From assembly GCA_963805625.1 (NCBI GenBank), contig CAWDVE010000014.1, positions 96,001 to 160,000 of the forward strand: a DNA stretch of 64,000 nt. The letters are read 5' to 3'. Under the pieces are notes generated by a model. The model did no database searches, was not told the origin of the DNA, and saw only the letters and a list, made by a program, of their open reading frames with translations. Of the stretch, positions 21,589-58,268 are shown piece by piece. This DNA is from an uncultured Candidatus Rokubacteria bacterium (GTDB lineage: Bacteria > Methylomirabilota > Methylomirabilia > Rokubacteriales > DASRDR01). Within the stretch, counting starts at the first letter, position 1. Every line of letters starts with the position of its first letter. The position numbers and the translations under genes were made by a program.

Positions 21589-22029
21589 TCACGGCGAGGG
21601 CGGCGCGGTCCCTCCGGGCATGCGGACGCGGGTCCACATGTTGGCGACGAAGACGATGGCCGACGCAAGCTGACCGAGTCCGCCGAGGGCTGCCAGGGAG
21701 GAGCCGCGGGTACCCGCGGCGGCCGCCGCGAGCTCGCCCAGGACGCGCACGAGGGTCGAGCCCGTCAACAGCCAGTAAACGAGCCAGGCGAGCCCGGGCC
21801 GGTACCGCCCGCCGTCCCGGGCCGGCCGGGGGAACATCCACGTCGCCACCCCGAACACCAGCATGAGCATGAAGCCCACGAGCACGAGATGCACGTGGGC
21901 GGTGATGACCGGCCACGCCACTGCCCGGCCCAGGAGGTTCACCTCGACCGTGATGTAACCGCCCAGGATCAGCCCGAGAAGCAAAAAGGCGAAGCTCGTC
22001 TTGATGTACAGGCGGACCAACGGCGTCAT
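21589..22029 (-). CDS. Four-TM membrane protein related to one heme-copper-oxidase repeat unit
   Basis: Four hydrophobic helices; TAHVHLVLVGFM..VATWMFPR HxH motif. Confidence 0.75.
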   Translation of the reverse strand: MTPLVRLYIKTSFAFLLLGLILGGYITVEVNLLGRAVAWPVITAHVHLVLVGFMLMLVFGVATWMFPRPARDGGRYRPGLAWLVYWLLTGSTLVRVLGELAAAAAGTRGSSLAALGGLGQLASAIVFVANMWTRVRMPGGTAPPSP

Positions 22030-22157
22030 GGCGTCCTCACGGTCCCGGGTGGCCGACGCGAAGCGATGGAAGCACAGGCGTCACGTGGGTGCTGGAGCCG
22101 ACGAGCGCCAGCGTAGCATGGCAACCCGTGTCGAGCGGATGCCGCCTACCGCCGCGC

Positions 22158-23576
22158 TCAGCGGCTCCCGATGCGCGCCGGCGTCCAGGGCGGGTCGAAG
22201 GTCAGCCTCACGTCAACCTCCTCCACGCCAGCCATCCCGAGCACTGCGCGGCGCACCCAGTCGGCCATGACGCCGTGCAGAGGGCAACCCGGAGCCGTGA
22301 GGGTCATGGTGACGCGGACGATGCCGCCCTCGACGGCCACCCCGTAGATCAGGCCCAGATCGACTACCGAGAGTCCCAGCTCCGGATCGACGACCGCGCG
22401 GAGCGTCTCCGTCACCCGCTCCGGCGTGACGGCGGGCGCGGCGTCCGAGCCGCCGACGATCTCGCGTCCGCGCGATGCCCCCCTCTGCCCGCCGGCCGGC
22501 TCGTACGCGCAGCCAGGGTCCTCAGCCAGCGGGTCGCCGGTGACCGCATACGCCCGGGCGCGGCTTCCGCCGCAGCGATCGCGGTACTCGCAGCGGCCGC
22601 ACCGGCCGCCGAGCTGCGTCGGATCGCGAAGCGCCCGAAAGAGCGGATCCTCCCGGTAGACCACGACGAGGTCGCGCTCCCGCGCGTTCGCCACCGGGAT
22701 CGGTAGGAACCCGCTCGGACAGATCTCGCCCCGGTGATCGATGAAGACGAACCCGTTCCCGTCAGTCACGGCCCGGGCCGCGCGGCCGATGGCGTCGGGA
22801 CGCATCACGGCCCGGGCGCCGGCGGAGCCGCCGTCCGCCGGGGAGTCCAGTCGCGCGGCCCGCCGGCGCATGGCCGCGACCCGGAGGTACTGGGGCGCCT
22901 CGGTGGTCTTCAGCCCGAAGGGGGCGTGCTCGGCGAGCGCCGCCGCCCAGTGCAGCACACCCTCGATCTCGCCGGCCGAGAGCGCCTGGTGCACCTGGGC
23001 GCGCCCGACCGGGATGAGGAAGAAGAGAGCCCAGAGCGCCGGCTGGATGGCTTCGATCTGCGGGACGAGAGCCGGCAAGTCGTCCACGGTCTGCCGGCAC
23101 ACCGTCGTGTTGACCTGGAGCGGGAGGCCGAGGGCACGTGCCCGCTCGAGAATCCGCAGCGTGTGGCGGTGGGAGCCGTGCACGCCCCGGAATGCGTCGT
23201 GGGTCGCTGCCGTGGCCCCGTCCAGACTCACCGCCAGTCGGCCCAGGCCCGCGTCGCTGAGCGCCCGCAGCTTCTCCTCCGTCACCAGCGCCGTCCCGCT
23301 CGGGGTCAGCGAGACCGTCACCCCGCGCCGCCGCGCGTGGGCGACCAGGTCCACGATGTCCGGCCGCCGCAGGGGATCGCCCCCGGTGAGCACCAGGACC
23401 GGCGGCGGGTCGCTGAACGCCGCCACGCGGTCGATGAGCCGGCAGCCCTCCTCCGTCGTGAGCTCCGCGGGATCCCGCCGCGGGATCGCCTCGGCCCGGC
23501 AATGGACGCACGCCAGCGCACACGCCCGGGTCGTCTCCCAGATGACGATGAAGGGCGCACGGTCGAACGTGGTCAT
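22158..23576 (-). CDS. Radical SAM/SPASM protein (TIGR04053, AhbD/NirJ-like) fused to a C-terminal DUF59 domain
   Basis: WETTRACALACVHC; SPASM CPSGFLP..CGRCEYRDRCGGSRARA..DPGC; DUF59 VVDPELGLSVVDLGLIY..TLTAPGCP..FDPPWTP. Confidence 0.88.
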   Translation of the reverse strand: MTTFDRAPFIVIWETTRACALACVHCRAEAIPRRDPAELTTEEGCRLIDRVAAFSDPPPVLVLTGGDPLRRPDIVDLVAHARRRGVTVSLTPSGTALVTEEKLRALSDAGLGRLAVSLDGATAATHDAFRGVHGSHRHTLRILERARALGLPLQVNTTVCRQTVDDLPALVPQIEAIQPALWALFFLIPVGRAQVHQALSAGEIEGVLHWAAALAEHAPFGLKTTEAPQYLRVAAMRRRAARLDSPADGGSAGARAVMRPDAIGRAARAVTDGNGFVFIDHRGEICPSGFLPIPVANARERDLVVVYREDPLFRALRDPTQLGGRCGRCEYRDRCGGSRARAYAVTGDPLAEDPGCAYEPAGGQRGASRGREIVGGSDAAPAVTPERVTETLRAVVDPELGLSVVDLGLIYGVAVEGGIVRVTMTLTAPGCPLHGVMADWVRRAVLGMAGVEEVDVRLTFDPPWTPARIGSR

Positions 23577-24880
23577 CGCGGCTCAGCCGGAAGCGGCGCC
23601 GGGACGGGACGGCCGCCCGGGCCGGGGAGCAGGGGGAGGAGGGTCCGCCCCAGCGCGGCCGCGAACGCCACGGCCCCGGCGGCGACGGCGGTGGCCGACG
23701 CCGTGATGGCCGGGCGCACCCCGGTGGCGACTGCGAGGGCGAGCGCGAGCGTGCCGCCCGTCAGAAGACCGTAGGCCAAGCGCTCGGCGGACGGCCAGGA
23801 CAGCTGGGCGAGCATCGGCACCGGCTCGCGGCCGGCGCGTGGCGCGTAGACGCGATACCAGACCAGGAACGGCACGATCTTGAGCATCATGCCCACGATC
23901 GTGAACGACACCCAGCCGCCGAGGGCGATGATGGCGTAGGCCATTGCCGCGCGCGGGCCGCCGTCGAGCGCGAGCATGAGACCCAGCGCGGCGCCCGGCG
24001 CGAGGCACGCGGTCCCCGTGAGCGCGAACCGGAGTCCGCTGTCGACAGCCGGGCGCTTCCGGCGCCGCGCAAAGTGGATCACCCACGTCGCGTGGACCGC
24101 CAGCGCCGCGGCCACAGTGGCGGCACCCGCGACCAGGAGCGTGACGCGCCCGAGAAGCAGGCCTGCCGCCAGCACCGGAACACCCAGTCCGAGTCCCCAG
24201 AGCTGGACCCGCGCCCCGCGGCCGTCGGGCTCCGGTGCAAGCAGGAACATGGGGTAGACCCGCGCCGCGACCCCCAGGATCATCGGCGCGATCCAGCCGA
24301 GGAGGGCCAGGTGAAAGTGGGCCTGCACGGCCGAGAGAACGCCACCCGGGAACACGTCGCGGCCGTGGGTGGCGGCCAGCGTGATGCCAAACCCGACCGT
24401 CAGCGTGAGCCCCGCGAGCCCGAGCGCGAGACTGCGGGCGGTGAACGTCCAGCGCGCCACCGCCCGAAGGGTCAGCGCGACGTTGACCACGTGAGCCAGG
24501 GCGCCCGCGCCCACCAGCGCGGCTGCCCACCCCATGCCCGCCCATCGCCCGGTCCAGAAATGGCTGACCATCCCGACGATACCCGCGACGAGCGCTGTCA
24601 GCTGCCAGCGCGCGAGGCGCTCGCTCCAGAGCGGCCGCTCGATCGCGACCGGGATCAGCTGGTAGCTCGCCCCCATGATCGCCAGCGTGATCCAGCCGAG
24701 GGCAACGACGTGCACGAGGGCGAGGAGCCGCGGGTGGTAGTAGTGCCCCGTCAGCTCGGCGCCGAGGGCGGGAAGGCTGAGCGCGGCCAGGACGAACGCC
24801 ATGGCGGCCGCCCCGAGGTAGGCGAGCGGCAGCGTCACGGACGGAGGGGACGCGGACCCTCGGGTCGGGAGGGGGATCAC
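23573..24880 (-). CDS. Polytopic membrane protein (heme-copper-oxidase-related accessory family)
   Basis: About 12 TM; LVHVVALGW..MGASYQLIP, AHFHLALLGW, GMMLKIVPFLVW. Confidence 0.75.
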   Translation of the reverse strand: MIPLPTRGSASPPSVTLPLAYLGAAAMAFVLAALSLPALGAELTGHYYHPRLLALVHVVALGWITLAIMGASYQLIPVAIERPLWSERLARWQLTALVAGIVGMVSHFWTGRWAGMGWAAALVGAGALAHVVNVALTLRAVARWTFTARSLALGLAGLTLTVGFGITLAATHGRDVFPGGVLSAVQAHFHLALLGWIAPMILGVAARVYPMFLLAPEPDGRGARVQLWGLGLGVPVLAAGLLLGRVTLLVAGAATVAAALAVHATWVIHFARRRKRPAVDSGLRFALTGTACLAPGAALGLMLALDGGPRAAMAYAIIALGGWVSFTIVGMMLKIVPFLVWYRVYAPRAGREPVPMLAQLSWPSAERLAYGLLTGGTLALALAVATGVRPAITASATAVAAGAVAFAAALGRTLLPLLPGPGGRPVPAPLPAEPR

Positions 24881-25416
24881 GCCCGCGAGTCCTCCCGCCA
24901 GATCGCGATGCGGACCAGCCCGGGTTCGGGTTCGTCCGTGGCGTGGCAGAAGCCGCGCTCGTCAAGCTGAGGGTAGAGGAACAGGGGGCGGCGGTCGTGA
25001 AGCACCTCGAGCCGACCCCCGGGCCCCAGCCGCTCGATGGCCTCCAGGGCCCGCACCATCGGCCAGGGTGGCTCCATACCGCGAACGTCGAGACGGATCA
25101 CGCCCTGGTCTCCGCGGACCGGCGGTACGATGGCCGCCGGCGTCGCCTTCGGTGCCGAGGTTGCAGCAGGCGCCTGACGGTAGAACCAGATCCACCAGTC
25201 ACCCGGCGCCCGGCGCTCGGCGCGGTGGGCAAAGCCTCGAGCCCCCAGCACCTTGTAGAGCGGCAGCGGCTCGAATGGAACGTGCAGGACCAGCGCCTCG
25301 TCCGGACCGAGCTCGCCGACGGCCGCGACGATCCTCTGGAGCGGCTCCGCGCCCTGTTCGATGTCCCCTCGGACGTCGAGGTGCCGCTCCGCGGCGAAGC
25401 CCACCGGTGAGCTCAC
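24877..25416 (-). CDS. Tandem DUF2249 domain protein
   Basis: LDVRGDIEQGAEPL..PFEPLPLY..LGARGF and LDVRGMEPPWPM..HDRRPLFLYPQLDERGF. Confidence 0.85.
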   Translation of the reverse strand: MSSPVGFAAERHLDVRGDIEQGAEPLQRIVAAVGELGPDEALVLHVPFEPLPLYKVLGARGFAHRAERRAPGDWWIWFYRQAPAATSAPKATPAAIVPPVRGDQGVIRLDVRGMEPPWPMVRALEAIERLGPGGRLEVLHDRRPLFLYPQLDERGFCHATDEPEPGLVRIAIWREDSRA

Positions 25417-27550: not shown

Positions 27551-28141
27551 CTACGCGCCGGTCTTGCCGACAACCTGGAACGGGTACATCCGCGGAATCA
27601 CGAGCGCGAGCGCCGCCGCCGCGACGATTCCCAGGGCCGTGCCTACCAGGAAAAGCGACCAGGTGTTCGGTCGGATGGCCCCGAGGGCCACGATGACGAA
27701 GAGAATCGGCAGATCAAGGAAGTGGGTGAACGTTGGCACGTGCTCCTGTCGGGCTCTCTCGAGCTCGGGGGTGGAGGTTCCCTGCTCCAGGGCAGCGATG
27801 GTCAATCGTCGGAGTCGCATGAAGTAGAGCCGCGTGATCGTGTTCCCTTCGATGAACTCGAACGCGAAGAGAGCCACCATGCCCGCGAGCCACGGCATTC
27901 CCAAGAACGCCCAACCGCCGTAGACCGTCACCGTTAGCCAGGTGCCGGAGCCCAGCAGAAGGAGGGCACCCGGAACCACGAGACCATCATAGAACACCGC
28001 GACCTGGCGGATGCTCTCGGCGAAGAGCTCGAGGTGGTGGACTTGCCGTGACCGCAGATCGGCGTACCAGACGCCAATCAACCCGGCGCCCATGAGCGTC
28101 AAGCCGAGAAGATGGACGAATCTCAGGATGGGGTAGGTGAT
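27551..28141 (-). CDS. DUF2269-family membrane protein (start uncertain)
   Basis: YPILRFVHLLG..DGLVVPGALLLLGSG..FTHFLD..LGAIRP; GGAGG lies 6 nt before ATC at 28141. Confidence 0.7.
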   Translation of the reverse strand: MTYPILRFVHLLGLTLMGAGLIGVWYADLRSRQVHHLELFAESIRQVAVFYDGLVVPGALLLLGSGTWLTVTVYGGWAFLGMPWLAGMVALFAFEFIEGNTITRLYFMRLRRLTIAALEQGTSTPELERARQEHVPTFTHFLDLPILFVIVALGAIRPNTWSLFLVGTALGIVAAAALALVIPRMYPFQVVGKTGA

Positions 28142-28188: not shown

Positions 28189-28809
28189 TCAGTGGTCCCC
28201 TGTCGCACGCAATTGCCCGCCCCAACGAAGGGTCAGCTCCTGCTGGTTCGAGAGCTCCAGCAGAAGGACCTGTCCCGACTCGACCTCCACCGTCGCCGCG
28301 ATACGCCGCTCGGACGACGATGTCGCGGCACCCTTCGCGGGTGCCCCGCCCGCCTCGACGAGCGCCCCTTCAAGGACGTGACGGCCTAGCGGCACCGAGA
28401 GCTCCTCGTACACGAACGTAGGGCCGTCGTGCCGGAGCCCGCTCGGCCGGTAGGTCCTCTCGAGGATGGGCCGGCCGTCCAACGTAACGCGAAGGGTCGT
28501 ATCACGGCGGGTCCCAGTCGCGCCGCTCTGGCCGCCCTGGGGTCGCATGTGCCGCGGGAGCTTCTCCAGCTCCTCCCGCGAGAGCGCGGCACCCGTCTCC
28601 GCGAACGTGGAGACGTGTTTGAAGGCGACCTTGAGCATCGCGACGCCGGGCGGTGTGGCGGCCCACGGGAACGACGAGAAGACGGCGAGGCCCGCAGCAA
28701 CAGCCAGGAAGAGCAGGACGAACCCGGCGAGCCGCCCCGGCCTTGGCCGGCGGTCTTCGAGCACTGGCGGCACCGCCTCTGACGATAGGGGTGCATCCTG
28801 CGCCGTCAC
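28189..28809 (-). CDS. Membrane-anchored hypothetical partner of the cytochrome b fusion
   Basis: GTG overlaps the upstream stop; one TM, then EELEKLPRHMR..LDGRPILERTYRPSGLRHDGP. Confidence 0.75.
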   Translation of the reverse strand: MTAQDAPLSSEAVPPVLEDRRPRPGRLAGFVLLFLAVAAGLAVFSSFPWAATPPGVAMLKVAFKHVSTFAETGAALSREELEKLPRHMRPQGGQSGATGTRRDTTLRVTLDGRPILERTYRPSGLRHDGPTFVYEELSVPLGRHVLEGALVEAGGAPAKGAATSSSERRIAATVEVESGQVLLLELSNQQELTLRWGGQLRATGDH

Positions 28810-30449
28810 GCCGCAAGCCTCCGCGCGAACGCCGCGAGATCGCGGAGGAAACGGTCCACCTCCACCGCCGCGTACCAGCGGGCGACGAGTCGCCCCTCGG
28901 GCAGGCCCTTGAGAGACGGCAGTCGCTGCCCCGAGAGACGTTCCGCGAGCCACTGACTCCCCTCCCGGGCGGAGCAGTTCTCCGGCACGCACCCGGCGAC
29001 GAACACGCCCCGGGCCCCGGCGGCGAGCGTCTTCGTGATCATGTCGGGGTGCAGCATCCCGACGCACGGAAGCCCCATCACCGTGACGCCCGGCAGGCCG
29101 ACCAGGCTCCCTTCCGGCGAGAGAGAGTCGCCGAGGCGGCTCATGAGCCGGCACGCGTAGACGACGACTGGCGGTCCCTCGCCTGCCGCCGAGGCGGCGC
29201 GGAGGCGCCACGTGACGGCCTCACCGAGCACGCTCACCGGCTGGTCGCCGAGGAGGATCCCCGCTGAGTCGCAAGCGCCGACACAGATCCCGCATCCCAC
29301 GCACTTCGCCGGGTTGACGACCGCCACCTGCTTGTAGCGTCCCCCTTCCTGGCGCGGAACCATAACGATGGCCTCGTACGGGCAGTCCTTCCAGCAGCGC
29401 GTGCAGCCGGTGCACGCCGAGTTCTCGATGCGGGCCTGCGGAGGAGCCGGCCCGCGCAAGAGCCACGGGAGCGCGGCGACCACGAGCCCGGTCCCGAAGG
29501 TGAGCGCTCCCCCGACCTTCGGGTCGAGTCCCGTGAGCGGGAAGTAGAAGAAGTAGAACCAGTCGATCGAGACGAGACCCGGGAGGCGCGACAGGTCGGC
29601 CGGCGGGCCCGAGACAGCCGGGCGCACGAGGCTAGCGACGACGAGCGCCGTCCCCGTGACCCACAGCACGACGCGGGGCGGCATGAACCGCGCCCGGGAC
29701 AGGCGCATGACGTGGAACCAGTAGGCCGCCCCCAGGAGAAACGGGATCGAGATGTGCGCGAAGAGCACCAGGAAGAAGAGGAACGTCTGGATGCGCTCGG
29801 AATCCACGAACGTGCGGACGAGCGGCTCGCCGAAGATGGGCAGGACGTCGAGGAGCTTCGCGGTCGTCACGGAGAGGATCTGGGCCTGCACATCCCAGAC
29901 GAGCCAGTAGCCGGTGGCCCCTGTCACCCAGACGAGCGAGAGAAGCGCGAGACCCGAGACCCATCCGATCCAGCGGGCTCCCCAGAATCGGTCGTCGAGC
30001 AGCATCTTCAGCCCGTGGAGCGCCGCGGCCAGGATCGCCGCGTCCGATGCGTAGCGGTGGAGCGACCGCATCAGGGCGCCGATCCCGAGGGGATGGACCA
30101 TGATCCCCTCGATCGAACGGTGGGCGGCCTCGGTCCCCACCCGATAGAACACGAAGAGGTACAGGCCCGTCACGGTAGCGACCGCCAGCGAGAAGACCGC
30201 GATCGTGCCCGAGTGGTAGAGGGGGTTCAGGGACGGGGAGACGATCCGGTCGAGCAGCACCTCCGCCCACTGATAGACGGTGGCGGCCCCGGAGAGCAGA
30301 CGACGGGGCCAGCGCGCCCGGCGGAGCGGGCGCGGCGGAAACGCCAGGAAAGGGCGGCGCGGCACCGGCGGCGCCGTTACCCCTTCCGACCCGGTCATTG
30401 GCGCCCCGACCATCGGGTCGCCGCGGTCGGTCCCGTCGGGCACCGTCAC
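28806..30449 (-). CDS. Cytochrome b - 2x[4Fe-4S] ferredoxin - MvhD/FlpD fusion
   Basis: His pairs LHRYASDAAILAAALH and AHISIPFLLGAAYWFH; DWFY; CTGCTRCWKDCP and CVGCGICVGAC; MvhD-like YAC, LPCVG, AGCVPENC. Confidence 0.88.
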   Translation of the reverse strand: MTVPDGTDRGDPMVGAPMTGSEGVTAPPVPRRPFLAFPPRPLRRARWPRRLLSGAATVYQWAEVLLDRIVSPSLNPLYHSGTIAVFSLAVATVTGLYLFVFYRVGTEAAHRSIEGIMVHPLGIGALMRSLHRYASDAAILAAALHGLKMLLDDRFWGARWIGWVSGLALLSLVWVTGATGYWLVWDVQAQILSVTTAKLLDVLPIFGEPLVRTFVDSERIQTFLFFLVLFAHISIPFLLGAAYWFHVMRLSRARFMPPRVVLWVTGTALVVASLVRPAVSGPPADLSRLPGLVSIDWFYFFYFPLTGLDPKVGGALTFGTGLVVAALPWLLRGPAPPQARIENSACTGCTRCWKDCPYEAIVMVPRQEGGRYKQVAVVNPAKCVGCGICVGACDSAGILLGDQPVSVLGEAVTWRLRAASAAGEGPPVVVYACRLMSRLGDSLSPEGSLVGLPGVTVMGLPCVGMLHPDMITKTLAAGARGVFVAGCVPENCSAREGSQWLAERLSGQRLPSLKGLPEGRLVARWYAAVEVDRFLRDLAAFARRLAA

Positions 30450-44301: not shown

Positions 44302-44519
44302 TCAGCACATCGTCAATCCGCCGCTCACCGATAGCGTCTGGCCGGTGACGAAGTCCGATCCGGGCGAGGCGAAGAAGGCAACCGCCGCCGCGATCTCCTC
44401 GGGCGTGGCCACCCGGCCGAACGGGGTCGCGCGGGTCACGGCCTCGAGGATCTTCTCCATCTTCGGGGATTGATCCCGGAGGGACTGTAGCAGCGGCGTC
44501 TCGGTGAGCCGAGCTTCAA
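44302..44519 (-). pseudogene. Internally deleted SDR (BadH-like C-terminus)
   Basis: AAGGAGG + TTG AAG CTC start joined out of frame to LTETPLL...PFGRVATPEEIAAAVAFFAS..FVTGQTLSVSGGLTM. Confidence 0.78.
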
Positions 44520-45347: not shown

Positions 45348-45363
45348 TATGACCCCTGTCATA
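45348..45363. promoter_or_regulatory. Third copy of the TATGAC-N4-GTCATA operator, upstream of dch
   Basis: TATGAC-CCCT-GTCATA; no clear -10 at the expected spacing. Confidence 0.55.
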
Positions 45364-45957: not shown

Positions 45958-46049
45958 CGGAAATGAAGCGCTTGCCGGATTCCCGACGTCCCGGTGAACA
46001 GCTTACCGTCAGGCCAGACGATCGACTGTTCGGTGGGAGGTTCGGGCCG

Positions 46050-46694
46050 ATGATCGGAGCACGGTACGAGGGCATCCTGGAGGCGGCGTGCGACGTCATC
46101 GCGCGCCGTGGCTTCCAGCAGGCCTCAATCCGCGAGATCGCCAACGCCTCCGGCCTCTCGCTGGCCGGCCTGTACCACTATGTCGGTGGGAAAGACGAGC
46201 TACTGTTCCTGGTCCTGGACCGTGCCCTCGACCGGCTGCTCGCCGCACTCGAGGCCGCGTGCCGCGGGACGAGCACTCCCGGGGAGCGTCTTCACGCGCT
46301 GGTCGAGACCCATCTCGACTTCGCCTCGCGCGACCCGCACGCGCTCAAGATCGTCAACCGAGACTACGACCTGCTCGGCGAGCCGCACCGCTCAGAGGTC
46401 GCCGCCAAGCGGCAGGAGTACCTCCGTCGCGGGCTCGCGGTCCTGCGCGAGCTCGACCCGCACGAGCGCTCGGAAGAGGAGCTGTTCTCGGCGACGAACC
46501 TTCTCCTGGGCATGCTGAACGGCATCGGGACCCGACCGTTCGTCCGCTCCGGCCAGAGTGTCCGGACGCTCGCGAACGAGGTCACGAGCCTCTTCCTTCA
46601 CGGCTTTCTCGATAGAGGCACGGGGAGCTCGGGCCATGATCCGGAGCCTGTGGAGATGGCTGCAGGGCCAGATGGTACGGGGCGTGCCGGATAG
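46050..46694 (+). CDS. TetR-family regulator (KstR2-like C-terminus)
   Basis: ILEAACDVIARRGFQQASIREIANASGLSLAGLYHYVGGKDELL. Confidence 0.92.
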   Translation: MIGARYEGILEAACDVIARRGFQQASIREIANASGLSLAGLYHYVGGKDELLFLVLDRALDRLLAALEAACRGTSTPGERLHALVETHLDFASRDPHALKIVNRDYDLLGEPHRSEVAAKRQEYLRRGLAVLRELDPHERSEEELFSATNLLLGMLNGIGTRPFVRSGQSVRTLANEVTSLFLHGFLDRGTGSSGHDPEPVEMAAGPDGTGRAG

Positions 46695-49255: not shown

Positions 49256-51991
49256 ATGGCGGGACCGAGCCCGGTGGTCGAGAGGATCCCCGTCTACTGC
49301 TACCAGTGCGTCGCCGGCCCCGACCTCCTGAAGGTCGTGGTCCGTGACGGCGTGGCGGTGGGGGTGGAGCCGAATCACGACGTCGCCGAGGTGCATCCCG
49401 CATGCGGCAAGGTCTGCGTCCGCGCCTACGGGCTGATCCACAAGCTCTACAACCCCGCGCGTGTCACGACGCCGATGCGCCGGACGAACCCACGGAAGGG
49501 CCGCCACGAGGACCCGGGCTGGGTGCCGATCTCGTGGGACGACGCGCTCGGGATCCTGACCGTCCGGCTCCGGGCCATCCGCGGTCGCGGGCTCGTCGAC
49601 GAGGCCGGCTATCCGCGCCTGGCGGCCACGTTCGGCGCGGGCGGCATCGCCCCGGCCTACCTCGGCACCTTCGCCGCTTTCCTGGCGGCGTGGGGGCCCG
49701 TGGACCAGGGCATCGGCAGCGGCCAGGGCGTCAAGTGCTACCACTCAGAGCACCTCTACGGGGAGTTCTGGCACCGCGCCTTCACCGTCGCGGCCGACGT
49801 GCCCCGATCGGACCTGGTTCTCTCCTTCGGATACAACGGCGACGCCTCCGGCGGGGTGACGGGGGTCTTTCGTCACGCCGAGGCGCGAGCGCGAGGTCTC
49901 CGTTGGATCCAGCTCGAGCCGCACCTGTCGGTCACCGGGGCTGGCGCCGAGGAGTGGGTGCCGATCCGTCCCAAGACCGACGCGGCCGTCCTGCTCGCGC
50001 TTCTGCACGTGATCCTCCTCGAGCACGACTGGCGCGCGGTCTGCGACGTCCCGTTCCTGACTGCAATGACCAGCTCGCCGTATCTGGTTTCCTCGGGCGG
50101 CCACTACCTCCGCGATCCCTCGACCGACAAACCCCTCGTCTGGGATCTGGACCGGGATCGTCCAGTCCCGTTCGACGATCCTGCCTGCCGGCAGCCCGCG
50201 ATGGACGGGAGCTACCTCGCCGCCGGGGTCGAGGTAGGCGCCGACGGCGCGCGCCGAACCGTCGCGGAGCGCGTGCGGCCCGCCTTCGTCCACCTCGTCG
50301 ACCACGTGCGGCCGTACACGCCGGAGTGGGCCGCCGCGATCGCCGACGTGCCAGCCGCGACGATCCGCCGACTGGCCGAGGCCTACCTGCGCCACGCGCG
50401 GGTCGGGGCGACGATCGAGCTCGACGGGGTGAGCTACCCGCACCGTCCCGTGGCAATCGTCCTCGGCAAGACCGTGACGAACGGGTGGGGCGGCTACGAG
50501 TGCTGCTGGGCCCGCACCGTGCTGGCGGGGCTGGTCGGAGCCCTGGAGGTGCCGGGAGGGATCGTGGGCACCACCGTGCGGCTGAACCGGCCGGCCCAGA
50601 ACCGCCTCGACTCGGTCCGCCCCGGCCTCGACGGATTCATGGAGCAGCCGGTGAACGCCACAGGCAAGGACACCTGGGCCAGCGCGCCCCACGTCCGGAA
50701 CGCGTACCGGACGCTCGTCCCCCTCGCCGGCGACTCTCCGTGGTCACCCGCGCTCGGTCCGGCTCACCTGCCCTGGTTGTTCCTCGACGAGCCGCCCGAT
50801 CGCTGGCCGGCGCCGACGCTGCCAGACGTGTGGATCATCTACCGCACGAACCCGGCCATCTCCAACTGGGATACTGGGCGCATCGAGCGCGAGCTCGAGC
50901 GCTTCCCCTTCGTGGCCGCCTTCGCGTACACGCAGGACGAGACGAACTGGTACGCGGACCTGCTTCTCCCGGAGGCGACGGACCTCGAATCGCTTCAGCT
51001 CTACCGGATCGGCGGCACCAAGTACATCGAGCAGTTCTGGCAGCACACGGGATGGGCGCTCCGCCAGCCGGTGCTGTCGGCGGGAAGCGGACCCGCCGAC
51101 ACGCGCGACCTCACGGACATCGCCACCGAGCTGGCCGCGCGCGTCGGTGTCCTCGACGAGTATCTCGCGGCCCTCAACCGGGGCTCCGGCACCACCGTGT
51201 CGCTGCGGGGCGAGGGGTACGACTTCAGGCTCCCCCCCGGCTCCCGCCCATCGGCGGCAGAGATCTGGGACCGTGTATGCCGCGCCGCCACCCGGTCGCT
51301 CTCCGGCGGCGGCGTGGAGCACGACCTCACCTGGTTCCGTGAGCATGGGGCCTTCTTCGTGCCGTTCGAGACGGGCCGCTACTACCTGCACACCACGATG
51401 GCCGCCAAGGGCCTGCGGTACGAGCTGCCCTACCAGGAGCGGATCCTGCGGATGGGCGAGGAGCTCCGCGCGAGGCTCCACGAGCGTGGCATCGTGTGGT
51501 GGGATGCCCAGCTGGAGGAGTACCAGCCGCTGCCCCGCTGGAAGGACTTTCCCGCGATCTGGCAGGCAACGGCCCGGGCCAACGGAAGAGACCCAAAGGA
51601 CTTTCCCTTCTGGCTCCTCACGAGCCGCTCGATGCAGTACTCCTGGGGCTCGAACGTGTCGCTGCCGATCCTCGCCGACGTGGCGCGCCACGTGACTGGC
51701 CACTTCGGCATCATCCTGAACCGCGGGTCGGCCCGGCGCCTCGGCGTCGGGGACGGAGACCTCGTCGAGATCGAATCGCCGACCGGCCGGACACACGGGC
51801 GTGCGATCCTCCGGGAGGGAGTGCGCCCGGACGTCGCCGTCATCCTCCAGCAGTTCGGCCACTGGGCCACGCCGTTCGCCCGGGACCTCGGGATGCCCAG
51901 CCTGAACCAGGTCGCGACCATGGACCTGGCGCTCACCGACGCCACCGGGAGTGGGGCGGACCTCGTCCCCGTGGCAATCCGGAGGGCGTGA
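49256..51991 (+). CDS. padB: Phenylacetyl-CoA:acceptor oxidoreductase molybdopterin subunit
   Basis: YCYQCVAGPDLL, GKVCV.AYGLI.K.YNP, RTNPRKGRHEDPG, GSGQGVKCYHSEHLYGEFWHRAF; no Tat signal. Confidence 0.8.
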   Translation: MAGPSPVVERIPVYCYQCVAGPDLLKVVVRDGVAVGVEPNHDVAEVHPACGKVCVRAYGLIHKLYNPARVTTPMRRTNPRKGRHEDPGWVPISWDDALGILTVRLRAIRGRGLVDEAGYPRLAATFGAGGIAPAYLGTFAAFLAAWGPVDQGIGSGQGVKCYHSEHLYGEFWHRAFTVAADVPRSDLVLSFGYNGDASGGVTGVFRHAEARARGLRWIQLEPHLSVTGAGAEEWVPIRPKTDAAVLLALLHVILLEHDWRAVCDVPFLTAMTSSPYLVSSGGHYLRDPSTDKPLVWDLDRDRPVPFDDPACRQPAMDGSYLAAGVEVGADGARRTVAERVRPAFVHLVDHVRPYTPEWAAAIADVPAATIRRLAEAYLRHARVGATIELDGVSYPHRPVAIVLGKTVTNGWGGYECCWARTVLAGLVGALEVPGGIVGTTVRLNRPAQNRLDSVRPGLDGFMEQPVNATGKDTWASAPHVRNAYRTLVPLAGDSPWSPALGPAHLPWLFLDEPPDRWPAPTLPDVWIIYRTNPAISNWDTGRIERELERFPFVAAFAYTQDETNWYADLLLPEATDLESLQLYRIGGTKYIEQFWQHTGWALRQPVLSAGSGPADTRDLTDIATELAARVGVLDEYLAALNRGSGTTVSLRGEGYDFRLPPGSRPSAAEIWDRVCRAATRSLSGGGVEHDLTWFREHGAFFVPFETGRYYLHTTMAAKGLRYELPYQERILRMGEELRARLHERGIVWWDAQLEEYQPLPRWKDFPAIWQATARANGRDPKDFPFWLLTSRSMQYSWGSNVSLPILADVARHVTGHFGIILNRGSARRLGVGDGDLVEIESPTGRTHGRAILREGVRPDVAVILQQFGHWATPFARDLGMPSLNQVATMDLALTDATGSGADLVPVAIRRA

Positions 51992-51992
51992 C

Positions 51993-52628
51993 ATGCGCTG
52001 GGGCATGGTGATCGACCTCGGCCGTTGCGTCGGCTGCCAGACCTGCACGATCGCCTGCAAGCAGGAGCACGGGCTGCCGGCGGGGACGTCCTGGCGCTTC
52101 GTCGCCGACTGCGAGGTGGGTGCGTACCCCGACGTCCGGCGCGTGTTCTTGCCGATGCAGTGCATGCATTGCGCCGAGCCACCGTGCGTTCCGGTGTGCC
52201 CGACCGGCGCCTCACGCCAGCGCGAGGACGGGATCGTCTGGGTCGCCTACGACGCGTGCGTCGGCTGCGGCTATTGCGCGATGGCGTGCCCGTACCGGGC
52301 GCGCCACCTCGTGCACGAAGCCGATCCCTATTTCGCCGAGCCGATTCCGCCCGAGCGGCTCAGCGTCCCGCCCGAGCGCCGGGGCGTCATGACCAAGTGC
52401 ACCTTCTGCAAGGAGCGGGTGGACGACGGCCGGGCCCGGGGCCTCCGGCCCGGGGTGGATCCCGACGCCACACCGATGTGCGCGGTGGCATGCATCACCG
52501 GCGCGATCGTCTTCGGCGACCTCGACGATGCCGGCAGCGCCGTCGCGAAGCTTCTCGCCCAGGGCGATGCCGTCCCGTTGCTGCCCGAGTGCGGCACCGC
52601 ACCCTCTGTGTTCTACCGGACGAGGTGA
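51993..52628 (+). CDS. padC: 4Fe-4S subunit of phenylacetyl-CoA:acceptor oxidoreductase
   Basis: CVGCQTCTIAC, CMHCAEPPCVPVCP, CVGCGYCAMACP, KCTFC..PGVDPDATP.C. Confidence 0.82.
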   Translation: MRWGMVIDLGRCVGCQTCTIACKQEHGLPAGTSWRFVADCEVGAYPDVRRVFLPMQCMHCAEPPCVPVCPTGASRQREDGIVWVAYDACVGCGYCAMACPYRARHLVHEADPYFAEPIPPERLSVPPERRGVMTKCTFCKERVDDGRARGLRPGVDPDATPMCAVACITGAIVFGDLDDAGSAVAKLLAQGDAVPLLPECGTAPSVFYRTR

Positions 52629-52632: not shown

Positions 52633-53532
52633 ATGGGCCCAATCGCCGCACGGCCACTGGAGGGCCCGGCACACGAGAGCCGGATACCCCTACTCCCGCC
52701 GATCGCCCAGGCCCTCTGGGGCTGGCCCGCCGTCCTTAACTTCGCCCTGGGGGGGCTCGGCGCCGGCCTCTACGTCATGGCGGCCGTGACCGCCGGATTC
52801 GCCCCGTCGCCGGCGCTCCGGATCGCCGCGTGGCTCGGGCCGCTCCTCGTCCTCGGAGGCTTTGGCGCCGTCGCCACGGAGGCCGGCCGCCCCTTCCGCG
52901 GTCCGCGTGTCCTCGCGCGCGTCCGGACTTCGTGGATGTCGCGCGAGCTCTGGCTCGGCGGCGTCTTCACGGTCCTCGCTGCCGGCGGCCTTCTCCTCGA
53001 GGAAACAATTCTGCGCGCCCTGGCGGCCGCCGCAGGGGCCGCTCTCGCGCTGGCCCAGGGGCAGATCCTGCGGCACGCCCGGGGCGTGATGGTCTGGGCG
53101 GTGCCCCCGATGCCGTTCGTCTTCCTCACCTCAGCCCTCGTCTCCGGCTCGGGCCTGCTCATCGTGCTGGAGGCGGGGAACGGGTCATCGCTGGACCAGC
53201 TACTCGGAGCGGCTCTCACCGTCCTGATCGTGCACGTCTGCGCCTGGTCGGTGCTCGTCAGCTGGTCGCATGACGGGGCGTTCCGCCAAGGTGTCCGCCC
53301 ACTCCGCGAGGGGCCGAGTGCCCTGGTCATCGTCGTCGGAGGCTATGTCCTCCCGTCACTGCTCGCCGCCCTCGCCATCGCTCTGCCCCGGCTCGGGCCG
53401 TCCCTCGCGGCCGCCGCCGGCGCTCTGATGGCCGCCGGTCAGGTCTTTGCGAAGGCCGCCGTCATCCTGAAGGCGGGTCAGCTCAGACCGGTCTCGCTCA
53501 CGCTGCCGCCGCTCCAGAGGAGGTCACCATGA
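52633..53532 (+). CDS. padD: DmsC/NrfD-type membrane anchor
   Basis: [32 protein letters not shown]; multiple TM. Confidence 0.75.
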
Positions 53533-55635: not shown

Positions 55636-55825
55636 CGCCGGCCGATGTGATCGCGGTCATACCCCGGCCGCCAGGCTCCGGCCATCCTGGACGCGTGACC
55701 ACCGTCCACGTGCTCCCGCCAACAAGAAGGCTGAGGCTTCCCTTCACCGCGGCCACCGACAGTCCGTGAACGCCGTGCGCGTCATGGGCCCCGCGAGCCC
55801 CACGCGCTAGGAAGGAGCCCGCCCC

Positions 55826-55969
55826 GTGAACGGGGTCATCGACTACTGGTGCAACATCTTCACCCCCGAGGGGATCCGGGCGAGCTTCACCGAGCAGCCG
55901 GAGCTGGCGGAGGTCTTAAGCTCTGAGCGGCCGGATGAGGGCGGTGACGTGCTGGCTTCCACGAGCTGA
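55826..55969 (+). pseudogene. Truncated amidohydrolase-like N-terminus
   Basis: GAAGGAG RBS, MNGVIDYWCNIFTPEGIRASFTEQPELAEV, then unrelated sequence and a stop after 47 aa. Confidence 0.55.
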
Positions 55970-56018: not shown

Positions 56019-56597
56019 ATGTCCTGTCACCTCCACCTGAAGCGCCCGGCCACGGCCCAGGCCGGCCAGGCGACCGCGGACCTTCGGGACGAGCACGAGG
56101 TGATCCTTCAGGCGCTCGCCGTGCTCGAGCGGGTCGCCAGCCGCCTCGCGTCCGGCCAACCCGTAAGCGACTCGACGCTGGCCGAGCTCGTCCAGTTCCT
56201 GCAGACATTCGCCGACCGCTGCCACCACGGCAAGGAGGAAGACCAACTCTTCCCCGCCATGCGGGCCAAGGGTGTCGGAGACACCCTTGCCGTCTTCAAG
56301 GAAGAACACGAGGAAGGGCGGCGCTACCTCCGCACCATCGCGAGCGGCGCCTCCAACGCCGAGCGGGCGGCTGCGGCGCGTCGCTATGTCGCCATGCTGC
56401 AAGGCCACATCGAACGCGAGAACGAGGTCCTGTTTCCTATGGCCGATGGGCTCTTCACCGCCGAGGAGCACGGCGCCCTGGCGCGCGCATACGAGGACGT
56501 GGAGCGCCAGGTCGCGGGCGCCGGCGCCCACGAGAGGCTCCTGACCACGCTGGCCCGGCTCGACGCCGCCGTGCCGCGGGACCGGGCCACGCCATGA
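56019..56597 (+). CDS. Hemerythrin (HHE) domain protein
   Basis: DEHEVI, DRCHHGKEEDQLFP, EEHEEGR, GHIERENEVLFP. Confidence 0.92.
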   Translation: MSCHLHLKRPATAQAGQATADLRDEHEVILQALAVLERVASRLASGQPVSDSTLAELVQFLQTFADRCHHGKEEDQLFPAMRAKGVGDTLAVFKEEHEEGRRYLRTIASGASNAERAAAARRYVAMLQGHIERENEVLFPMADGLFTAEEHGALARAYEDVERQVAGAGAHERLLTTLARLDAAVPRDRATP

Positions 56598-57037: not shown

Positions 57038-57126
57038 CCGGGCTCGGACGTGCCCCATCTCCCCTGCACGTTCCTTGATCCACGGCCGAACGCGTCAGCT
57101 CGACTGACGAATGCCTCGCGGACCCC

Positions 57127-57558
57127 TCAGCCACGGAGCGAGAGGCCGAGGAGGACGATCGACAGGGCGACCAGGACGTTCAGGCGGGCGACCCAGGACG
57201 CTCGGACGCGAGCGGACGGATCCGCACCGGGGAGGTTGGCGCGCGGGCCGAGGACGAAGTCGTGGAACGCGCTCAAGAGCAGAGCGAGACCCACGAGCCC
57301 CAGCTTCCCGTGGAACCGGCCGGAGCGGAGCAGGCCTGGTTGAAACCACAGGTTCAGGAGCCCCGTGAGGAGCAGAATCCCCAGCGCGATCCAGGCGATC
57401 GTCCGGAAGCGCCGACCGCTGTCCTGGATGAGGCGCGCCCGGAGCGTCGCGTCGCCGAGCGCCCGGGCCGTGGGGACCAGGACCAGCGCGATGAACAGCA
57501 TGCCGCCTACCCAGGTGATCGCCGAAAGGACGTGGACCCAGCGGACGAACAGCGCCAC
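57127..57558 (-). CDS. CopD/DUF4149-like four-TM protein
   Basis: RWVHVLSAITWVGGMLF, LSAFHDFVLGP; GTG overlaps the Crp/Fnr stop. Confidence 0.78.
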   Translation of the reverse strand: MALFVRWVHVLSAITWVGGMLFIALVLVPTARALGDATLRARLIQDSGRRFRTIAWIALGILLLTGLLNLWFQPGLLRSGRFHGKLGLVGLALLLSAFHDFVLGPRANLPGADPSARVRASWVARLNVLVALSIVLLGLSLRG

Positions 57559-58268
57559 TACTGCGACTCGCCCTGGGCGCGGGCGCGCAAGGCAGCCTGG
57601 TCCCGTACGATGAGGCGGCCACCGTGGTCCTCCACCAGCTCGTCCCGCAGCCAGCGGCTCACCACGCGGATGGCTGTCTCCACCGTGGTCCCCGACATGT
57701 CGGCCAGGCTCTGACGCGTCAAGTGGAACGGCAACTCGACCCCGCGCTTCGTGCGGACCCCCTCCCGGTCCGCCAGCCGCAGCAGGGTGGCCGCCAGGCG
57801 CGCCTCCACCGGCTCGGCCGACAGGGACTTGACCGAGTCGTGGGCGGCCCGAAGCCGCCGGCCGATCAGGAGCGCCATCTCGCGGACGACCGGCGGATGG
57901 CGTTCCGCGAGACCCACGACGACGTCGGCCGGGATCTGCACCACGATACTGGGCTCCGTCGCCTGGGCCGACGCCGGATAAGGTCGTCGCTCGATGACGG
58001 CGACGCCGCCGAAGATCTCGCCGGGGCCGAGCAGCTCCAGGACCACGTCCTTGCCCGTGCGGGAATGATGCACAATCCGCACATGCCCGGCCCTGACGAG
58101 ACAGAGCCACAGCGCCGGATCGCCCTCGTGGAACACATACTCTCGGGCTCGGCAGGGCACCTCGCGCGCCGCCGCCGCGAGGGACTCCAGCTCGAGGGCC
58201 GGAAGCCCAGCAAACACGGAGCTGGCCCGCAAGAAGTCGAGCGCTTCCCCGGAGTCCGGACGCGACAT
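57558..58268 (-). CDS. Crp/Fnr-family regulator (DNR/NnrR-like, no FNR Cys cluster)
   Basis: VFHEGDPA, LGPGEIFG, YPASAQA, VEARLA, HTH LTRQSLADMSGTTVETAIRVVSRW. Confidence 0.92.
   Translation of the reverse strand: MSRPDSGEALDFLRASSVFAGLPALELESLAAAAREVPCRAREYVFHEGDPALWLCLVRAGHVRIVHHSRTGKDVVLELLGPGEIFGGVAVIERRPYPASAQATEPSIVVQIPADVVVGLAERHPPVVREMALLIGRRLRAAHDSVKSLSAEPVEARLAATLLRLADREGVRTKRGVELPFHLTRQSLADMSGTTVETAIRVVSRWLRDELVEDHGGRLIVRDQAALRARAQGESQ

What the first reader, a model, noticed from the sequence alone, without database searches (positions are those of the whole stretch)
21589..58268. One island linking anaerobic aromatic degradation to eNOR-type NO respiration
Seen: within 37 kb lie an eNOR operon, a divergent 2-oxoacid:ferredoxin oxidoreductase, bcrCB-padBCD-bcrAD, dch, hemerythrin and a Crp/Fnr regulator. 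The same palindrome precedes eNOR, the DUF542 sub-operon and dch. Known: class I BCR needs ATP and reduced ferredoxin, supplied by a 2-oxoacid:Fd oxidoreductase in Thauera; PadBCD passes electrons from phenylacetyl-CoA to quinone. Inference: a co-regulated donor-plus-acceptor module for aromatic oxidation coupled to NO reduction by eNOR, probably in an uncultured non-proteobacterial lineage. I do not know of this arrangement being described.
Basis: partly seen in the sequence, partly recalled or inferred. Interest (0 to 1): 0.85.

Follow-up and report, generated by a model that had tools for sequence, protein, structure and literature searches.

The report
NO reductase linked to aromatic breakdown
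In uncultured soil and groundwater Rokubacteria, genes for a nitric-oxide reductase repeatedly sit beside genes predicted to break down aromatic rings without oxygen and share a DNA site with part of them, so the two likely work together; this genome's own copy has two broken genes.

Summary
Observation confirmed. All named genes are present. Subunit I has all five published eNOR channel residues. TATGAC-N4-GTCATA occurs exactly three times in 7.27 Mb, all here. The organism is a Rokubacterium. Across 183 genomes of the order, 28 of 33 with eNOR carry this reductase (10.6 expected). Seven genomes in seven genera hold both within 31 kb, in different gene orders and with two eNOR subtypes. No sign of a chimera. 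Corrections: (1) tetR-bcr-pad has its own conserved promoter and palindromic operator, and here the box faces dch, not bcr. (2) The divergent enzyme is PFOR-type, shares a contig with bcrB only here, and is probably not the dedicated donor. (3) The reductase is closest to MBR (MbdNO); had/oah were not found, and an SDR plus amidohydrolase likely replace them. (4) This genome's SDR and a second amidohydrolase are deleted. (5) 31 of 59 bcr genomes have no full-length eNOR match. Co-expression is untested. This scan noted padBCD-inside-bcr before on other DNA; my look-ups found no note of the eNOR link. Verdict: new variant of known kinds, interesting because eNOR is thought to need O2 for its haem while BCR is O2-labile.

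The parts
21589..22029 (-). small membrane protein with weak haem-copper-oxidase homology
   Evidence: PF00115 E 5e-7
22158..23576 (-). TIGR04053 radical SAM (AhbD-like) fused to a SufT-like domain
   Evidence: TIGR04053 455 bits, above cut-off; PF01883
23573..24838 (-). membrane protein with weak haem-copper-oxidase homology
   Evidence: PF00115 E 1e-7
24877..25416 (-). DUF2249 protein
   Evidence: PF10006
25413..25685 (-). DUF542 (ScdA_N / RIC N-terminal domain) protein
   Evidence: PF04405
25736..25751 (.). Crp/Fnr-type box 1, candidate -10 hexamer 21 nt downstream toward DUF542
   Evidence: conserved in L012, L014, L024, L051
25712..27019 (-). NnrS-like membrane protein
   Evidence: PF05940
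27059..27475 (-). small c-type cytochrome (one CxxCH), no Pfam hit
   Evidence: sequence
27551..28093 (-). DUF2269 membrane protein
   Evidence: PF10027
28189..28764 (-). conserved last gene of the eNOR operon, no Pfam hit
28806..30449 (-). cytochrome b / 2x[4Fe-4S] / FlpD-like fusion
   Evidence: PF00033, Fer4, PF02662
30446..31327 (-). SCO copper chaperone
   Evidence: PF02630
31321..32205 (-). haem o synthase CtaB
   Evidence: TIGR01473 above cut-off
32216..33565 (-). eNOR 'scaffold', a subunit-I paralogue with invariant H51, H209, H342, H344 and no His-His pair
   Evidence: alignment A1 of 8 sequences
33690..35363 (-). eNOR subunit I (H231, Q235, Y246, S308, H311)
35376..35900 (-). eNOR subunit II with CuA ligands (H121, C156, C160, H164, M167) and E18
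35910..36092 (-). 60-aa small subunit of the eNOR operon
   Evidence: conserved in relatives
36166..36181 (.). Crp/Fnr-type box 2, candidate -10 hexamer 22 nt downstream toward eNOR; none at that spacing toward PFOR
36416..38410 (+). PFOR-type 2-oxoacid:ferredoxin oxidoreductase, alpha-gamma part
   Evidence: best family TIGR02176, 367 bits; PadG 145 bits
38403..38822 (+). CBS-domain protein
   Evidence: PF00571
38819..40498 (+). PFOR-type oxidoreductase, delta-beta part
   Evidence: TIGR02176 203 bits, Fer4 plus TPP domain
40531..40776 (+). small Cys-rich protein, no Pfam hit
40785..41900 (+). second TIGR04053 radical SAM
   Evidence: 444 bits, above cut-off
41891..42553 (+). PAS-LuxR regulator, often upstream of tetR-bcr in relatives
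42738..43121 (+). Met-rich protein with a signal-like N-terminus, no Pfam hit
43337..44188 (-). amidohydrolase-family protein, predicted ring-opening hydrolase
   Evidence: PF04909; follows the SDR gene in relatives
44302..44509 (-). 3' remnant of a BadH-like SDR; 541 bp missing relative to G011
   Evidence: intact 251-257 aa in 6 relatives
44532..45323 (-). Dch-like enoyl-CoA hydratase
   Evidence: best family TIGR03189, 166 bits, cut-off 292.5
45348..45363 (.). Crp/Fnr-type box 3, faces dch; same site in G011
45432..45743 (-). small Cys-containing protein, no Pfam hit
46004..46033 (+). conserved -10-like hexamer plus palindromic operator (consensus CCGAAC-N4-GTTCGG, 2 mismatches here) ahead of tetR
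46050..46694 (+). TetR-family regulator leading the bcr-pad operon
   Evidence: PF00440, PF17932
46770..47924 (+). BcrC/MbdN-like subunit
   Evidence: best PDB match MbdN E 4e-73
47943..49226 (+). BcrB/MbdO-like catalytic subunit (E68, C97, C131, C366)
   Evidence: best PDB match MbdO E 2e-73
49256..51991 (+). PadB-like molybdoenzyme, no twin-arginine signal
51993..52628 (+). PadC-like Fe-S subunit
52633..53532 (+). PadD-like membrane anchor
   Evidence: weak PF04976
53529..54344 (+). short BcrA-like ATPase subunit (271 aa)
   Evidence: PF01869; matches only positions 212-432 of TIGR02259
54348..55148 (+). BcrD-like ATPase subunit
   Evidence: PF01869, TIGR02261
55189..55635 (+). GNAT acetyltransferase, conserved after bcrD
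55646..55661 (.). degenerate fourth box (2 mismatches)
55826..55918 (+). 31-codon remnant of a second amidohydrolase (281 aa in G011)
56019..56597 (+). hemerythrin
   Evidence: PF01814
56594..57037 (+). VOC-family (methylmalonyl-CoA epimerase-like) protein
57127..57558 (-). CopD/DUF4149 membrane protein
57558..58268 (-). Crp/Fnr regulator, predicted binder of the box; only two Cys, helix VETAIR

Best explanation
This is a gene neighbourhood conserved across Rokubacteriales in which an eNOR operon and NO-stress genes carrying a shared palindrome sit beside a TetR-led operon predicted to oxidise phenylacetate-type acids and reduce the aromatic ring, and it likely lets the cell burn aromatic acids with nitrite-derived NO as one electron sink when oxygen runs out. 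Predicted flow: a PaaK-like ligase makes the arylacetyl-CoA; PadBCD oxidises it and passes electrons to quinone; a four-subunit 2-oxoacid oxidoreductase (in the operon in G136, G171, G179) gives aroyl-CoA; the MBR-like class I reductase dearomatises it with ATP and reduced ferredoxin; the Dch-like hydratase, BadH-like SDR and amidohydrolase open the ring. Electrons return via quinone and cytochrome c to NirK or NirS and eNOR, ending in N2O. Control is predicted to have two tiers: a TetR repressor sensing a CoA ester at the bcr-pad promoter, and a Crp/Fnr activator sensing NO or low O2 at TATGAC-N4-GTCATA. Shown: genes, residues, linkage, boxes, operator, deletions. Inferred: every activity, substrate, signal and co-expression. 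In this genome the SDR step is broken, so the local copy may be decaying or complemented by a badHI-like cluster on contig C13.
For: eNOR residues match all five in Dataset S1 of PMC11214002. 28 of 33 eNOR genomes carry bcrB among 183 (10.6 expected, odds ratio 21.5); within-genus shuffling gave a mean of 17.1 and never reached 28 in 20000 shuffles. Among the 89 Crp-positive genomes eNOR still tracks bcrB (25 of 29, OR 11.6) whereas nirK does not (OR 0.6). All 7 same-contig pairs lie 3.6-31 kb apart. G136: box-eNOR-...-tetR-bcr-pad on one strand. G054: one box between eNOR and luxR-tetR-bcr-pad-dch-nirK. G118: box ahead of tetR-bcr. Two eNOR subtypes are linked to one BcrB clade. 72 of 85 genomes with the box have the Crp orthologue; 32 of 33 eNOR genomes have the box. 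PaaK-like ligase, Liv transporter and PadE/G/I-like genes lie in fuller operons. 20 of the 28 genomes have nirK or nirS, and all 4 nirS genomes have both eNOR and bcrB. G000 has nirK; nosZ and a cNOR-like query found nothing.
Against: 31 of 59 bcrB genomes have no full-length eNOR match, including G097 (4 contigs, 95% complete), G019 and G171. 21 of the 28 co-occurring genomes have the genes on different contigs, so linkage there is unknown. A box lies within 3 kb upstream of bcrC in only 9 of 38 loci, and in this genome it faces dch. Close BcrB relatives (64-72% identity) in records labelled Planctomycetota, Phycisphaerae or Acidobacteria mostly lack pad and show no eNOR or box within the fetched flanks of up to 10 kb. 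eNOR is described as needing O2 for haem a synthesis (PMC11214002), which conflicts with an O2-labile reductase (lability recalled). In G000 the SDR and second amidohydrolase are broken, and no orthologue of the four-subunit oxidoreductase was found (best 33-35% identity). Reductase, Dch, PaaK and PadE/G/I matches are all below curated cut-offs. Kin are not independent, even within genera.
Confidence: 0.55

Rival explanations
1. Guard model: eNOR and its neighbours mainly remove NO to protect the exposed Fe-S clusters of the ring reductase, PadBC and PFOR; the main electron sink is nitrate reduction, NrfA or trace O2.
For: The box also drives DUF542 (RIC N-domain), DUF2249 and SufT-fused radical SAM genes, and hemerythrin follows bcr in most loci, even three Phycisphaerae-labelled loci. 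eNOR tracks bcrB but nirK does not among Crp-positive genomes. 8 of 28 eNOR-plus-bcr genomes had no nirK or nirS match. G000 has nrfA, a Nar-like enzyme and a ba3-type oxidase on C19. The class I active site is an open aqua-[4Fe-4S] cluster (PMC11971306).
Against: The operon keeps the proton-channel residues, CuA subunit and a cytochrome b/Fe-S partner, as expected of a respiratory enzyme; nirK or nirS lies inside the cluster in G054, G118 and G153. The two roles are not exclusive.
Confidence: 0.22
2. Passive clustering: both modules sit in one low-oxygen hot spot that is gained and lost in blocks, with no special functional tie.
For: bcr loci also neighbour ba3-like oxidases, nrfAH, a cNOR-like gene, NnrS, Usp and CBS genes. 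Block deletions occur: G013 lost window 42447-57386 in one step. bcr-pad has its own promoter and operator in 29 of 38 loci.
Against: The link survives different gene orders in 7 genera and an eNOR subtype change; nirK, in the same regulon, shows no such tie; boxes sit at tetR-bcr promoters in several genomes.
Confidence: 0.14
3. The four-subunit enzyme acts on a substrate other than benzoyl-CoA (a substituted or heteroaromatic aroyl-CoA, or a 2-hydroxyacyl-CoA), so the module is not simple phenylacetate degradation.
For: All subunits are below BCR cut-offs; the catalytic Glu and three Cys are shared with the dehydratase HadB; Phycisphaerae-labelled relatives sit in beta-oxidation-type operons; had/oah not found.
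Against: MbdO/MbdN score 251/250 bits against 129/157 for the dehydratase; Dch-like, BadH-like, PaaK-like and PadB-labelled neighbours. A substituted benzoate would still fit the main model.
Confidence: 0.08
4. Chimeric assembly between 36 and 46 kb.
For: The closest relative G013 lacks the aromatic block; G000 contamination is 6.3%. No single laid contig spans the whole stretch.
Against: In G013 both flanks are adjacent and both flanking genes are cut, which reads as a deletion there. Contigs of three runs from three studies bridge the step from the PAS-LuxR gene into the block at about 42.55-42.75 kb, and two bridge parts of 45.4-46.1 kb. The same linkage occurs in six other genomes.
Confidence: 0.01

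Closest known systems
eNOR of Rhodothermus marinus (Murali et al. 2024, PMC11214002; main text parts 1-3 of 6, Dataset S1, rows of S6 and S8 read)
   Same: B-family-derived subunit I with Gln for the cross-link Tyr, same channel residues, CuA subunit II. Rokubacteriales eNORs are already listed in Dataset S8.
   Different: No ctaA in this operon (a weak CtaA match lies on C21). It sits beside an anaerobic ring reductase, whereas eNOR users are described as obligate aerobic denitrifiers.
eNOR operon of Ferrigenium straubiae (bioRxiv 10.64898/2026.01.22.701106; passages read)
   Same: eNOR II, I, haem o synthase, sco1, 'scaffold' gene and cytochrome b/Fe-S genes; present under nominally anoxic growth, raising the same haem a question.
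   Different: Iron-oxidising autotroph; no aromatic genes in the passages read.
mbd cluster and MBR-type class I reductase of Aromatoleum/Azoarcus sp. CIB and Thauera (PMC4424350 passages; PMC11971306 parts 1-2 of 8 and passages; PDB 9g87)
   Same: Best structural relatives MbdO and MbdN; TetR-family repressor; mbd and bzd genes also need an oxygen-dependent activator, AcpR.
   Different: Different operator (MbdR binds ATAC-N10-GTAT); padBCD nested between catalytic and ATPase genes; physically tied to eNOR; different phylum. That MbdWXY are a hydratase, SDR and amidohydrolase is recalled only; one search found no text with those names.
pad pathway (PadBCD, PadEFGHI, PadJ) of Thauera aromatica and Aromatoleum aromaticum (PMC9765128 passages; enzyme details recalled)
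   Same: Three-subunit signal-less molybdoenzyme whose 78-96% homologues are labelled phenylacetyl-CoA:acceptor oxidoreductase by JGI; ligase and 2-oxoacid oxidoreductase in fuller operons.
   Different: No direct comparison with characterised PadB was possible; A. aromaticum uses NirS/NorBC/NosZ with FNR-type motifs, and the passages read show no linkage of nor to pad or bzd.
DNR/NnrR/HcpR-type Crp/Fnr regulons (recalled; PMC9765128 passage on dnrD and nnr)
   Same: Palindrome with 4-nt core about 41-43 nt from the predicted start; members include nor, nir, NnrS, RIC-domain and hemerythrin genes.
   Different: Half-site TATGAC; regulon reaches into aromatic catabolic genes; signal untested.

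Membership tests
eNOR | Gln in place of the cross-linked Tyr (R. marinus Q245) | tested here: met
   H231-x3-Q235; aligned to ba3; criterion in PMC8756737 and Dataset S1
eNOR | Channel residues Y256, S318, H321 and subunit II E21 | tested here: met
   Y246, S308, H311 at a constant 10-residue offset; E18 in subunit II
eNOR | B-family scaffold with six metal-binding His and a CuA subunit II | tested here: met
   ba3 is the best PDB match, E 1e-39; motifs FHG, AHHL, GHFH and CuA ligands
eNOR | Haem As and NO-to-N2O activity without O2 reduction | not testable with these tools
   needs purified enzyme
B-family O2 reductase (ba3) | His-Tyr cross-link | tested here: not met
   Gln at that site; the true ba3-type relative has GHPIVY
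class I benzoyl-CoA reductase | Two catalytic HGD-D subunits plus two ATPase subunits in one operon | tested here: met
class I benzoyl-CoA reductase | Catalytic Glu and three Cys of the aqua-[4Fe-4S] site | tested here: met
   E68, C97, C131, C366 align with MbdO; not diagnostic, as HadB shares them
class I BCR, Thauera BCR type | TIGR02259/02260/02261/02263 above cut-off; long BcrA | tested here: not met
   208/578, 306/487, 195/313, 290/421 bits; BcrA is 271 aa
class I BCR, MBR type | Closest to MbdO/MbdN rather than BzdO/N or HAD | tested here: inconclusive
   best PDB matches by about 100 bits or more, but no tree with characterised enzymes was built
class I benzoyl-CoA reductase | ATP-dependent ring reduction to dienoyl-CoA | not testable with these tools
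   needs assay
PadBCD | Signal-less Mo subunit, Fe-S subunit and membrane anchor; homologues assigned to PadB | tested here: met
   label is an automatic JGI name
PadBCD | Orthology to characterised Thauera/Aromatoleum PadB | tested here: inconclusive
   no NCBIfam hit at 1e-40; no named PadB among plasmid records
KGOR-type BCR electron donor (recalled for Thauera) | Kor/OAFO family 2-oxoacid oxidoreductase | tested here: not met
   window enzyme scores 67 bits on TIGR03710 and best matches PFOR; a TIGR03710 member above cut-off lies on C10
Thauera-type lower benzoyl-CoA pathway | had and oah genes | tested here: not met
   best 124/339 and 119/464 bits in G000
FNR (O2-sensing, Fe-S) | Four-Cys cluster motif (recalled) | tested here: not met
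   only C39 and C56
DNR-type NO sensor | Haem/NO-dependent binding to the box | not testable with these tools
   only co-occurrence of box and regulator shown
mobile genomic island | Integrase, tRNA site or compositional shift | tested here: not met

The most novel reading that the evidence does not exclude
Rokubacteria run eNOR as the respiratory partner of an O2-labile ring reductase under true anoxia, building its haem a without O2 from genes in the same cluster (the His-bearing 'scaffold' paralogue, the cytochrome b/Fe-S fusion, CtaB and two AhbD-like radical SAM enzymes). That would overturn the view that eNOR users are obligate aerobic denitrifiers, name candidates for an O2-independent haem a route, and make this common soil and aquifer lineage an unrecognised source of N2O from aromatic acids.
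Probability: 0.2. Interest if true: 0.85.

Novelty: new variant of a known kind. Interest (0 to 1): 0.58.

Why it matters
It gives an uncultured, widespread lineage a concrete predicted anaerobic lifestyle (aromatic acids plus nitrite, probably ending in N2O, since nosZ was not found in G000) and an enrichment recipe. It supplies a defined regulator, box and operator to test. It also sharpens an open question stated in the Ferrigenium preprint: how eNOR obtains haem a without oxygen. The parts and the general physiology (denitrifiers degrading aromatics under Fnr-type control) are known, which caps the score.

Tried and rejected
RNA evidence: four metatranscriptome runs hold short contigs on both modules, but they are contigs with a small word share, so level, strand and co-expression cannot be read. 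Generic repeat search missed the box among GC-rich noise; a palindrome scan found it. PFOR as dedicated donor: in 25 of 183 genomes, 17 of them with bcrB, on the bcrB contig only in G000; beside eNOR in G000, G010, G013, G015. nirS in G000: only weak beta-propeller hits. nosZ, paaA-type epoxidase, had, oah, PadG above cut-off: not found in G000. cNOR-like gene as substitute for eNOR: in 12 of 183 genomes, 7 with bcrB, so it explains few eNOR-less cases. Plasmid searches gave no characterised PadB or MbdO to compare. The amidohydrolase matched only an uncharacterised structure; TetR and Crp matched only generic family members. A paper on the Thermus PaaR operator was not held, so any likeness of the TetR operator to it is unverified. 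Literature: no paper on this linkage appeared in searches for Rokubacteria plus benzoyl-CoA reductase (1 hit, a soil survey, listing only), or (listings only, apart from papers named as read); subscription journals are mostly not covered, and the PNAS SI appendix and alignment file could not be read. No structure or complex prediction was run.

Full report
Observation. On the minus strand: a 60-aa subunit, subunit II, subunit I, a subunit-I paralogue, ctaB, sco, a cytochrome b/Fe-S fusion and a conserved unknown gene (36092-28189), then DUF2269, a small cytochrome c, NnrS-like, DUF542, DUF2249, two oxidase-homology proteins and a radical SAM. On the plus strand: a split PFOR-type enzyme with a CBS gene, a second radical SAM and PAS-LuxR; then dch-like, an SDR remnant and an amidohydrolase (minus); then tetR-bcrC-bcrB-padBCD-bcrA-bcrD-GNAT, hemerythrin, VOC, and a convergent Crp/Fnr gene. 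The palindrome TATGAC-N4-GTCATA occurs at 25736, 36166 and 45348 and nowhere else exactly in 7.27 Mb (0.008 expected). The window is G000:C14:96001-160000. Homologue names and record titles point to Rokubacteria (Methylomirabilota). GC is flat and no tRNA or integrase was seen, so this is a gene neighbourhood, not a mobile island.

The oxidase is an eNOR by sequence. Its best solved relative is ba3, but it has Gln235 where ba3 has the cross-link Tyr. Y246, S308, H311 and subunit II E18 match the R. marinus residues in Dataset S1 of PMC11214002. That paper already lists Rokubacteriales eNORs and says eNOR needs microoxic conditions because CtaA makes haem a with O2. This operon has ctaB but no ctaA; a weak CtaA match lies on C21. 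The same operon layout and the same puzzle are described for Ferrigenium (passages). G000 has nirK above cut-off, nrfA, a Nar-like enzyme and a ba3-type oxidase; nirS, nosZ and a cNOR-like query found nothing.

The reductase is class I-like and closest to MBR. MbdO and MbdN are the best PDB matches (251 and 250 bits against 129 and 157 for the dehydratase), BcrA is short, and all four subunits fall below Thauera-type cut-offs. had and oah were not found above cut-off. Instead relatives carry dch-like, BadH-like SDR and amidohydrolase genes in a row, often with a PaaK-like ligase, a Liv transporter and a four-subunit 2-oxoacid oxidoreductase with an NAD(P)-binding flavoprotein. That points to phenylacetate or a substituted arylacetate. 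PadB rests on automatic JGI labels and architecture. Earlier notes of this scan reached the same reading of padBCD inside bcr; I confirmed the gene order but not orthology to characterised PadB.

The linkage is conserved. All 183 genomes of the order were searched. BcrB matched in 59 and eNOR subunit I in 33 (E at most 1e-100); 28 have both. Expected 10.6; odds ratio 21.5; within-genus shuffling gave a mean of 17.1 and never reached 28 in 20000 tries. As a control, nirK tracks bcrB weakly overall (OR 2.3) and not at all among the 89 Crp-positive genomes (OR 0.6), where eNOR still does (25 of 29, OR 11.6). Seven of the 28 have both genes on one contig, always close: G054 3.6 kb, G136 8.2, G000 12.6, G118 20.2, G145 20.9, G153 24.3, G179 30.9; these are seven genera in two families. 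The other 21 are split over contigs of fragmented assemblies. Two more loci (L086, L099) show eNOR genes cut by a contig end, divergent from tetR-bcr, and L078, L080 and L082 carry single eNOR-operon genes next to it. Gene order differs: one strand from box through eNOR to bcr-pad in G136; divergent from one box in G054; convergent in G118, G145, G179. G054's eNOR belongs to a second subtype (branch 0.85, support 100/100) while its BcrB nests in the common clade (13 and 21 rows, chosen from loci in hand). Against an obligate tie: 31 of 59 bcrB genomes lack a full eNOR match, and 64-72% relatives in Planctomycetota-labelled records show neither eNOR nor the box in the fetched flanks.

Not a chimera. 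G013, about 93-95% identical in DNA, is colinear on both sides but lacks window 42447-57386; the join cuts both PAS-LuxR and the CopD-like gene, which reads as a deletion in G013. Contigs from three runs of three studies bridge about 42.55-42.75 kb and two bridge parts of 45.4-46.1 kb, though none spans the whole stretch (4 of 24 listed runs laid).

Regulation has two tiers. The exact box occurs in 85 of 183 genomes (reversed control in 2); 72 of these have the Crp orthologue and 32 of 33 eNOR genomes have it. Candidate -10 hexamers lie 21-23 nt beyond the box toward eNOR, DUF542 and dch, an activator geometry; none at that spacing faces PFOR or tetR in this genome. The regulator has only two Cys, so it is unlikely to be an Fe-S FNR (motif recalled); its neighbours suggest NO sensing, untested. 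A box lies within 3 kb upstream of bcrC in 9 of 38 loci (0 of 38 for three control patterns), and by eye faces tetR-bcr in about six. The 38 are the TetR-led loci with usable upstream DNA among the 80 returned. Independently, tetR is preceded by a conserved -10 and a palindrome CCGAAC-N4-GTTCGG (within 2 mismatches in 29 of 38, control 0 of 38), placed like a repressor site. TetR plus an oxygen-dependent activator is also how mbd genes are controlled (passages), so two-tier control is not new in kind.

The divergent oxidoreductase. It best matches PFOR, occurs in 25 genomes, 17 with bcrB, shares a contig with bcrB only in G000, and sits by eNOR in four close relatives. A Kor-type enzyme, the kind recalled as the Thauera donor, lies on C10. 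The window enzyme could still supply reduced ferredoxin here, or stand in for the missing arylglyoxylate step, but nothing shows it.

This copy is damaged. Against G011 the SDR lacks 541 bp and the second amidohydrolase keeps 31 codons. Run X1, possibly the source sample, bridges both joins; an X2 contig matches up to the SDR join and runs on with other sequence, consistent with an intact gene in a close strain. The SDR is whole in six relatives. G000 also lacks an orthologue of the four-subunit oxidoreductase, but has a PaaK-like ligase (C17), a benzoate-CoA ligase (C10) and a badHI-like cluster (C13) that might compensate.

Verdict. The module is looser than proposed, and function is inferred throughout. 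A donor-plus-acceptor role (0.55) leads a protective role (0.22) and passive clustering (0.14). I found no description of the linkage in the searches named under Tried and rejected. New variant of known kinds; interest 0.58.

Noticed in passing
window 32216-33565 (-): The eNOR 'scaffold' paralogue keeps H51, H209, H342 and H344 invariant in 8 sequences but lacks the His-His pair, so it may bind haem without a full metal site; candidate maturation factor.
   Followed up: partly
window 22158-23576 and 40785-41900: Two TIGR04053 (AhbD-like) radical SAM paralogues, about 48% identical, in one NO-linked cluster; one is fused to a SufT-like domain that is a separate ORF in G118.
   Followed up: partly
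window 55189-55635 (+): A GNAT acetyltransferase follows bcrD in most Rokubacterial bcr operons that reach that far; target unknown.
   Followed up: no
window 40531-40776 and 45432-45743: Two small Cys-containing proteins with no Pfam match; the first recurs near PAS-LuxR and bcr loci in relatives.
   Followed up: no
L127:32-12983, L124, L136, L143: Phycisphaerae/Planctomycetota-labelled records carry the same MBR-like reductase (65-70%) at the end of an operon with a second HGD-D/ATPase pair, a CoA ligase, a thiolase and a 3-hydroxyacyl-CoA dehydrogenase fusion; no pad.
   Followed up: partly
L123:2447-10387: In one Sulfotelmatobacter-labelled record padB/padC lie between bcrA and bcrD rather than between bcrB and bcrA, a different nesting point.
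   Followed up: no
G000:C19:309684-322342 (L073): Second respiratory cluster: Nar-like DMSO-reductase type II enzyme, nrfA and a ba3-type oxidase, with no box at 2 mismatches or fewer.
   Followed up: partly
G000:C13:340903-344300 (L072): badI-like, badH-like and cyclohexanecarboxyl-CoA dehydrogenase-like genes, all below cut-off.
   Followed up: partly
L053:15849-17219 (-): A cNOR-like large subunit occurs in 12 of 183 genomes at 86-100% identity; in G097 it lies near bcr where eNOR was not found.
   Followed up: partly
window 17938-19045 (+): ligA/ligB-type aromatic ring-opening dioxygenase genes 2.5 kb left of the finding, an aerobic aromatic function next to the anaerobic cluster.
   Followed up: no
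window 10355-12525 (+): SBP56 (selenium-binding, methanethiol-oxidase-like family) gene followed by a SCO gene.
   Followed up: no
window 42738-43121 (+): Met-rich 127-aa protein with internal 21-nt repeats and an 82% paralogue on C10.
   Followed up: no
window 61720-63378 (-): N,N-dimethylformamidase beta-subunit-like protein, conserved in G013.
   Followed up: no
G000:C12:129115 and 164341: Two one-mismatch copies of the box outside the window; neighbouring genes gave no informative family hit.
   Followed up: partly
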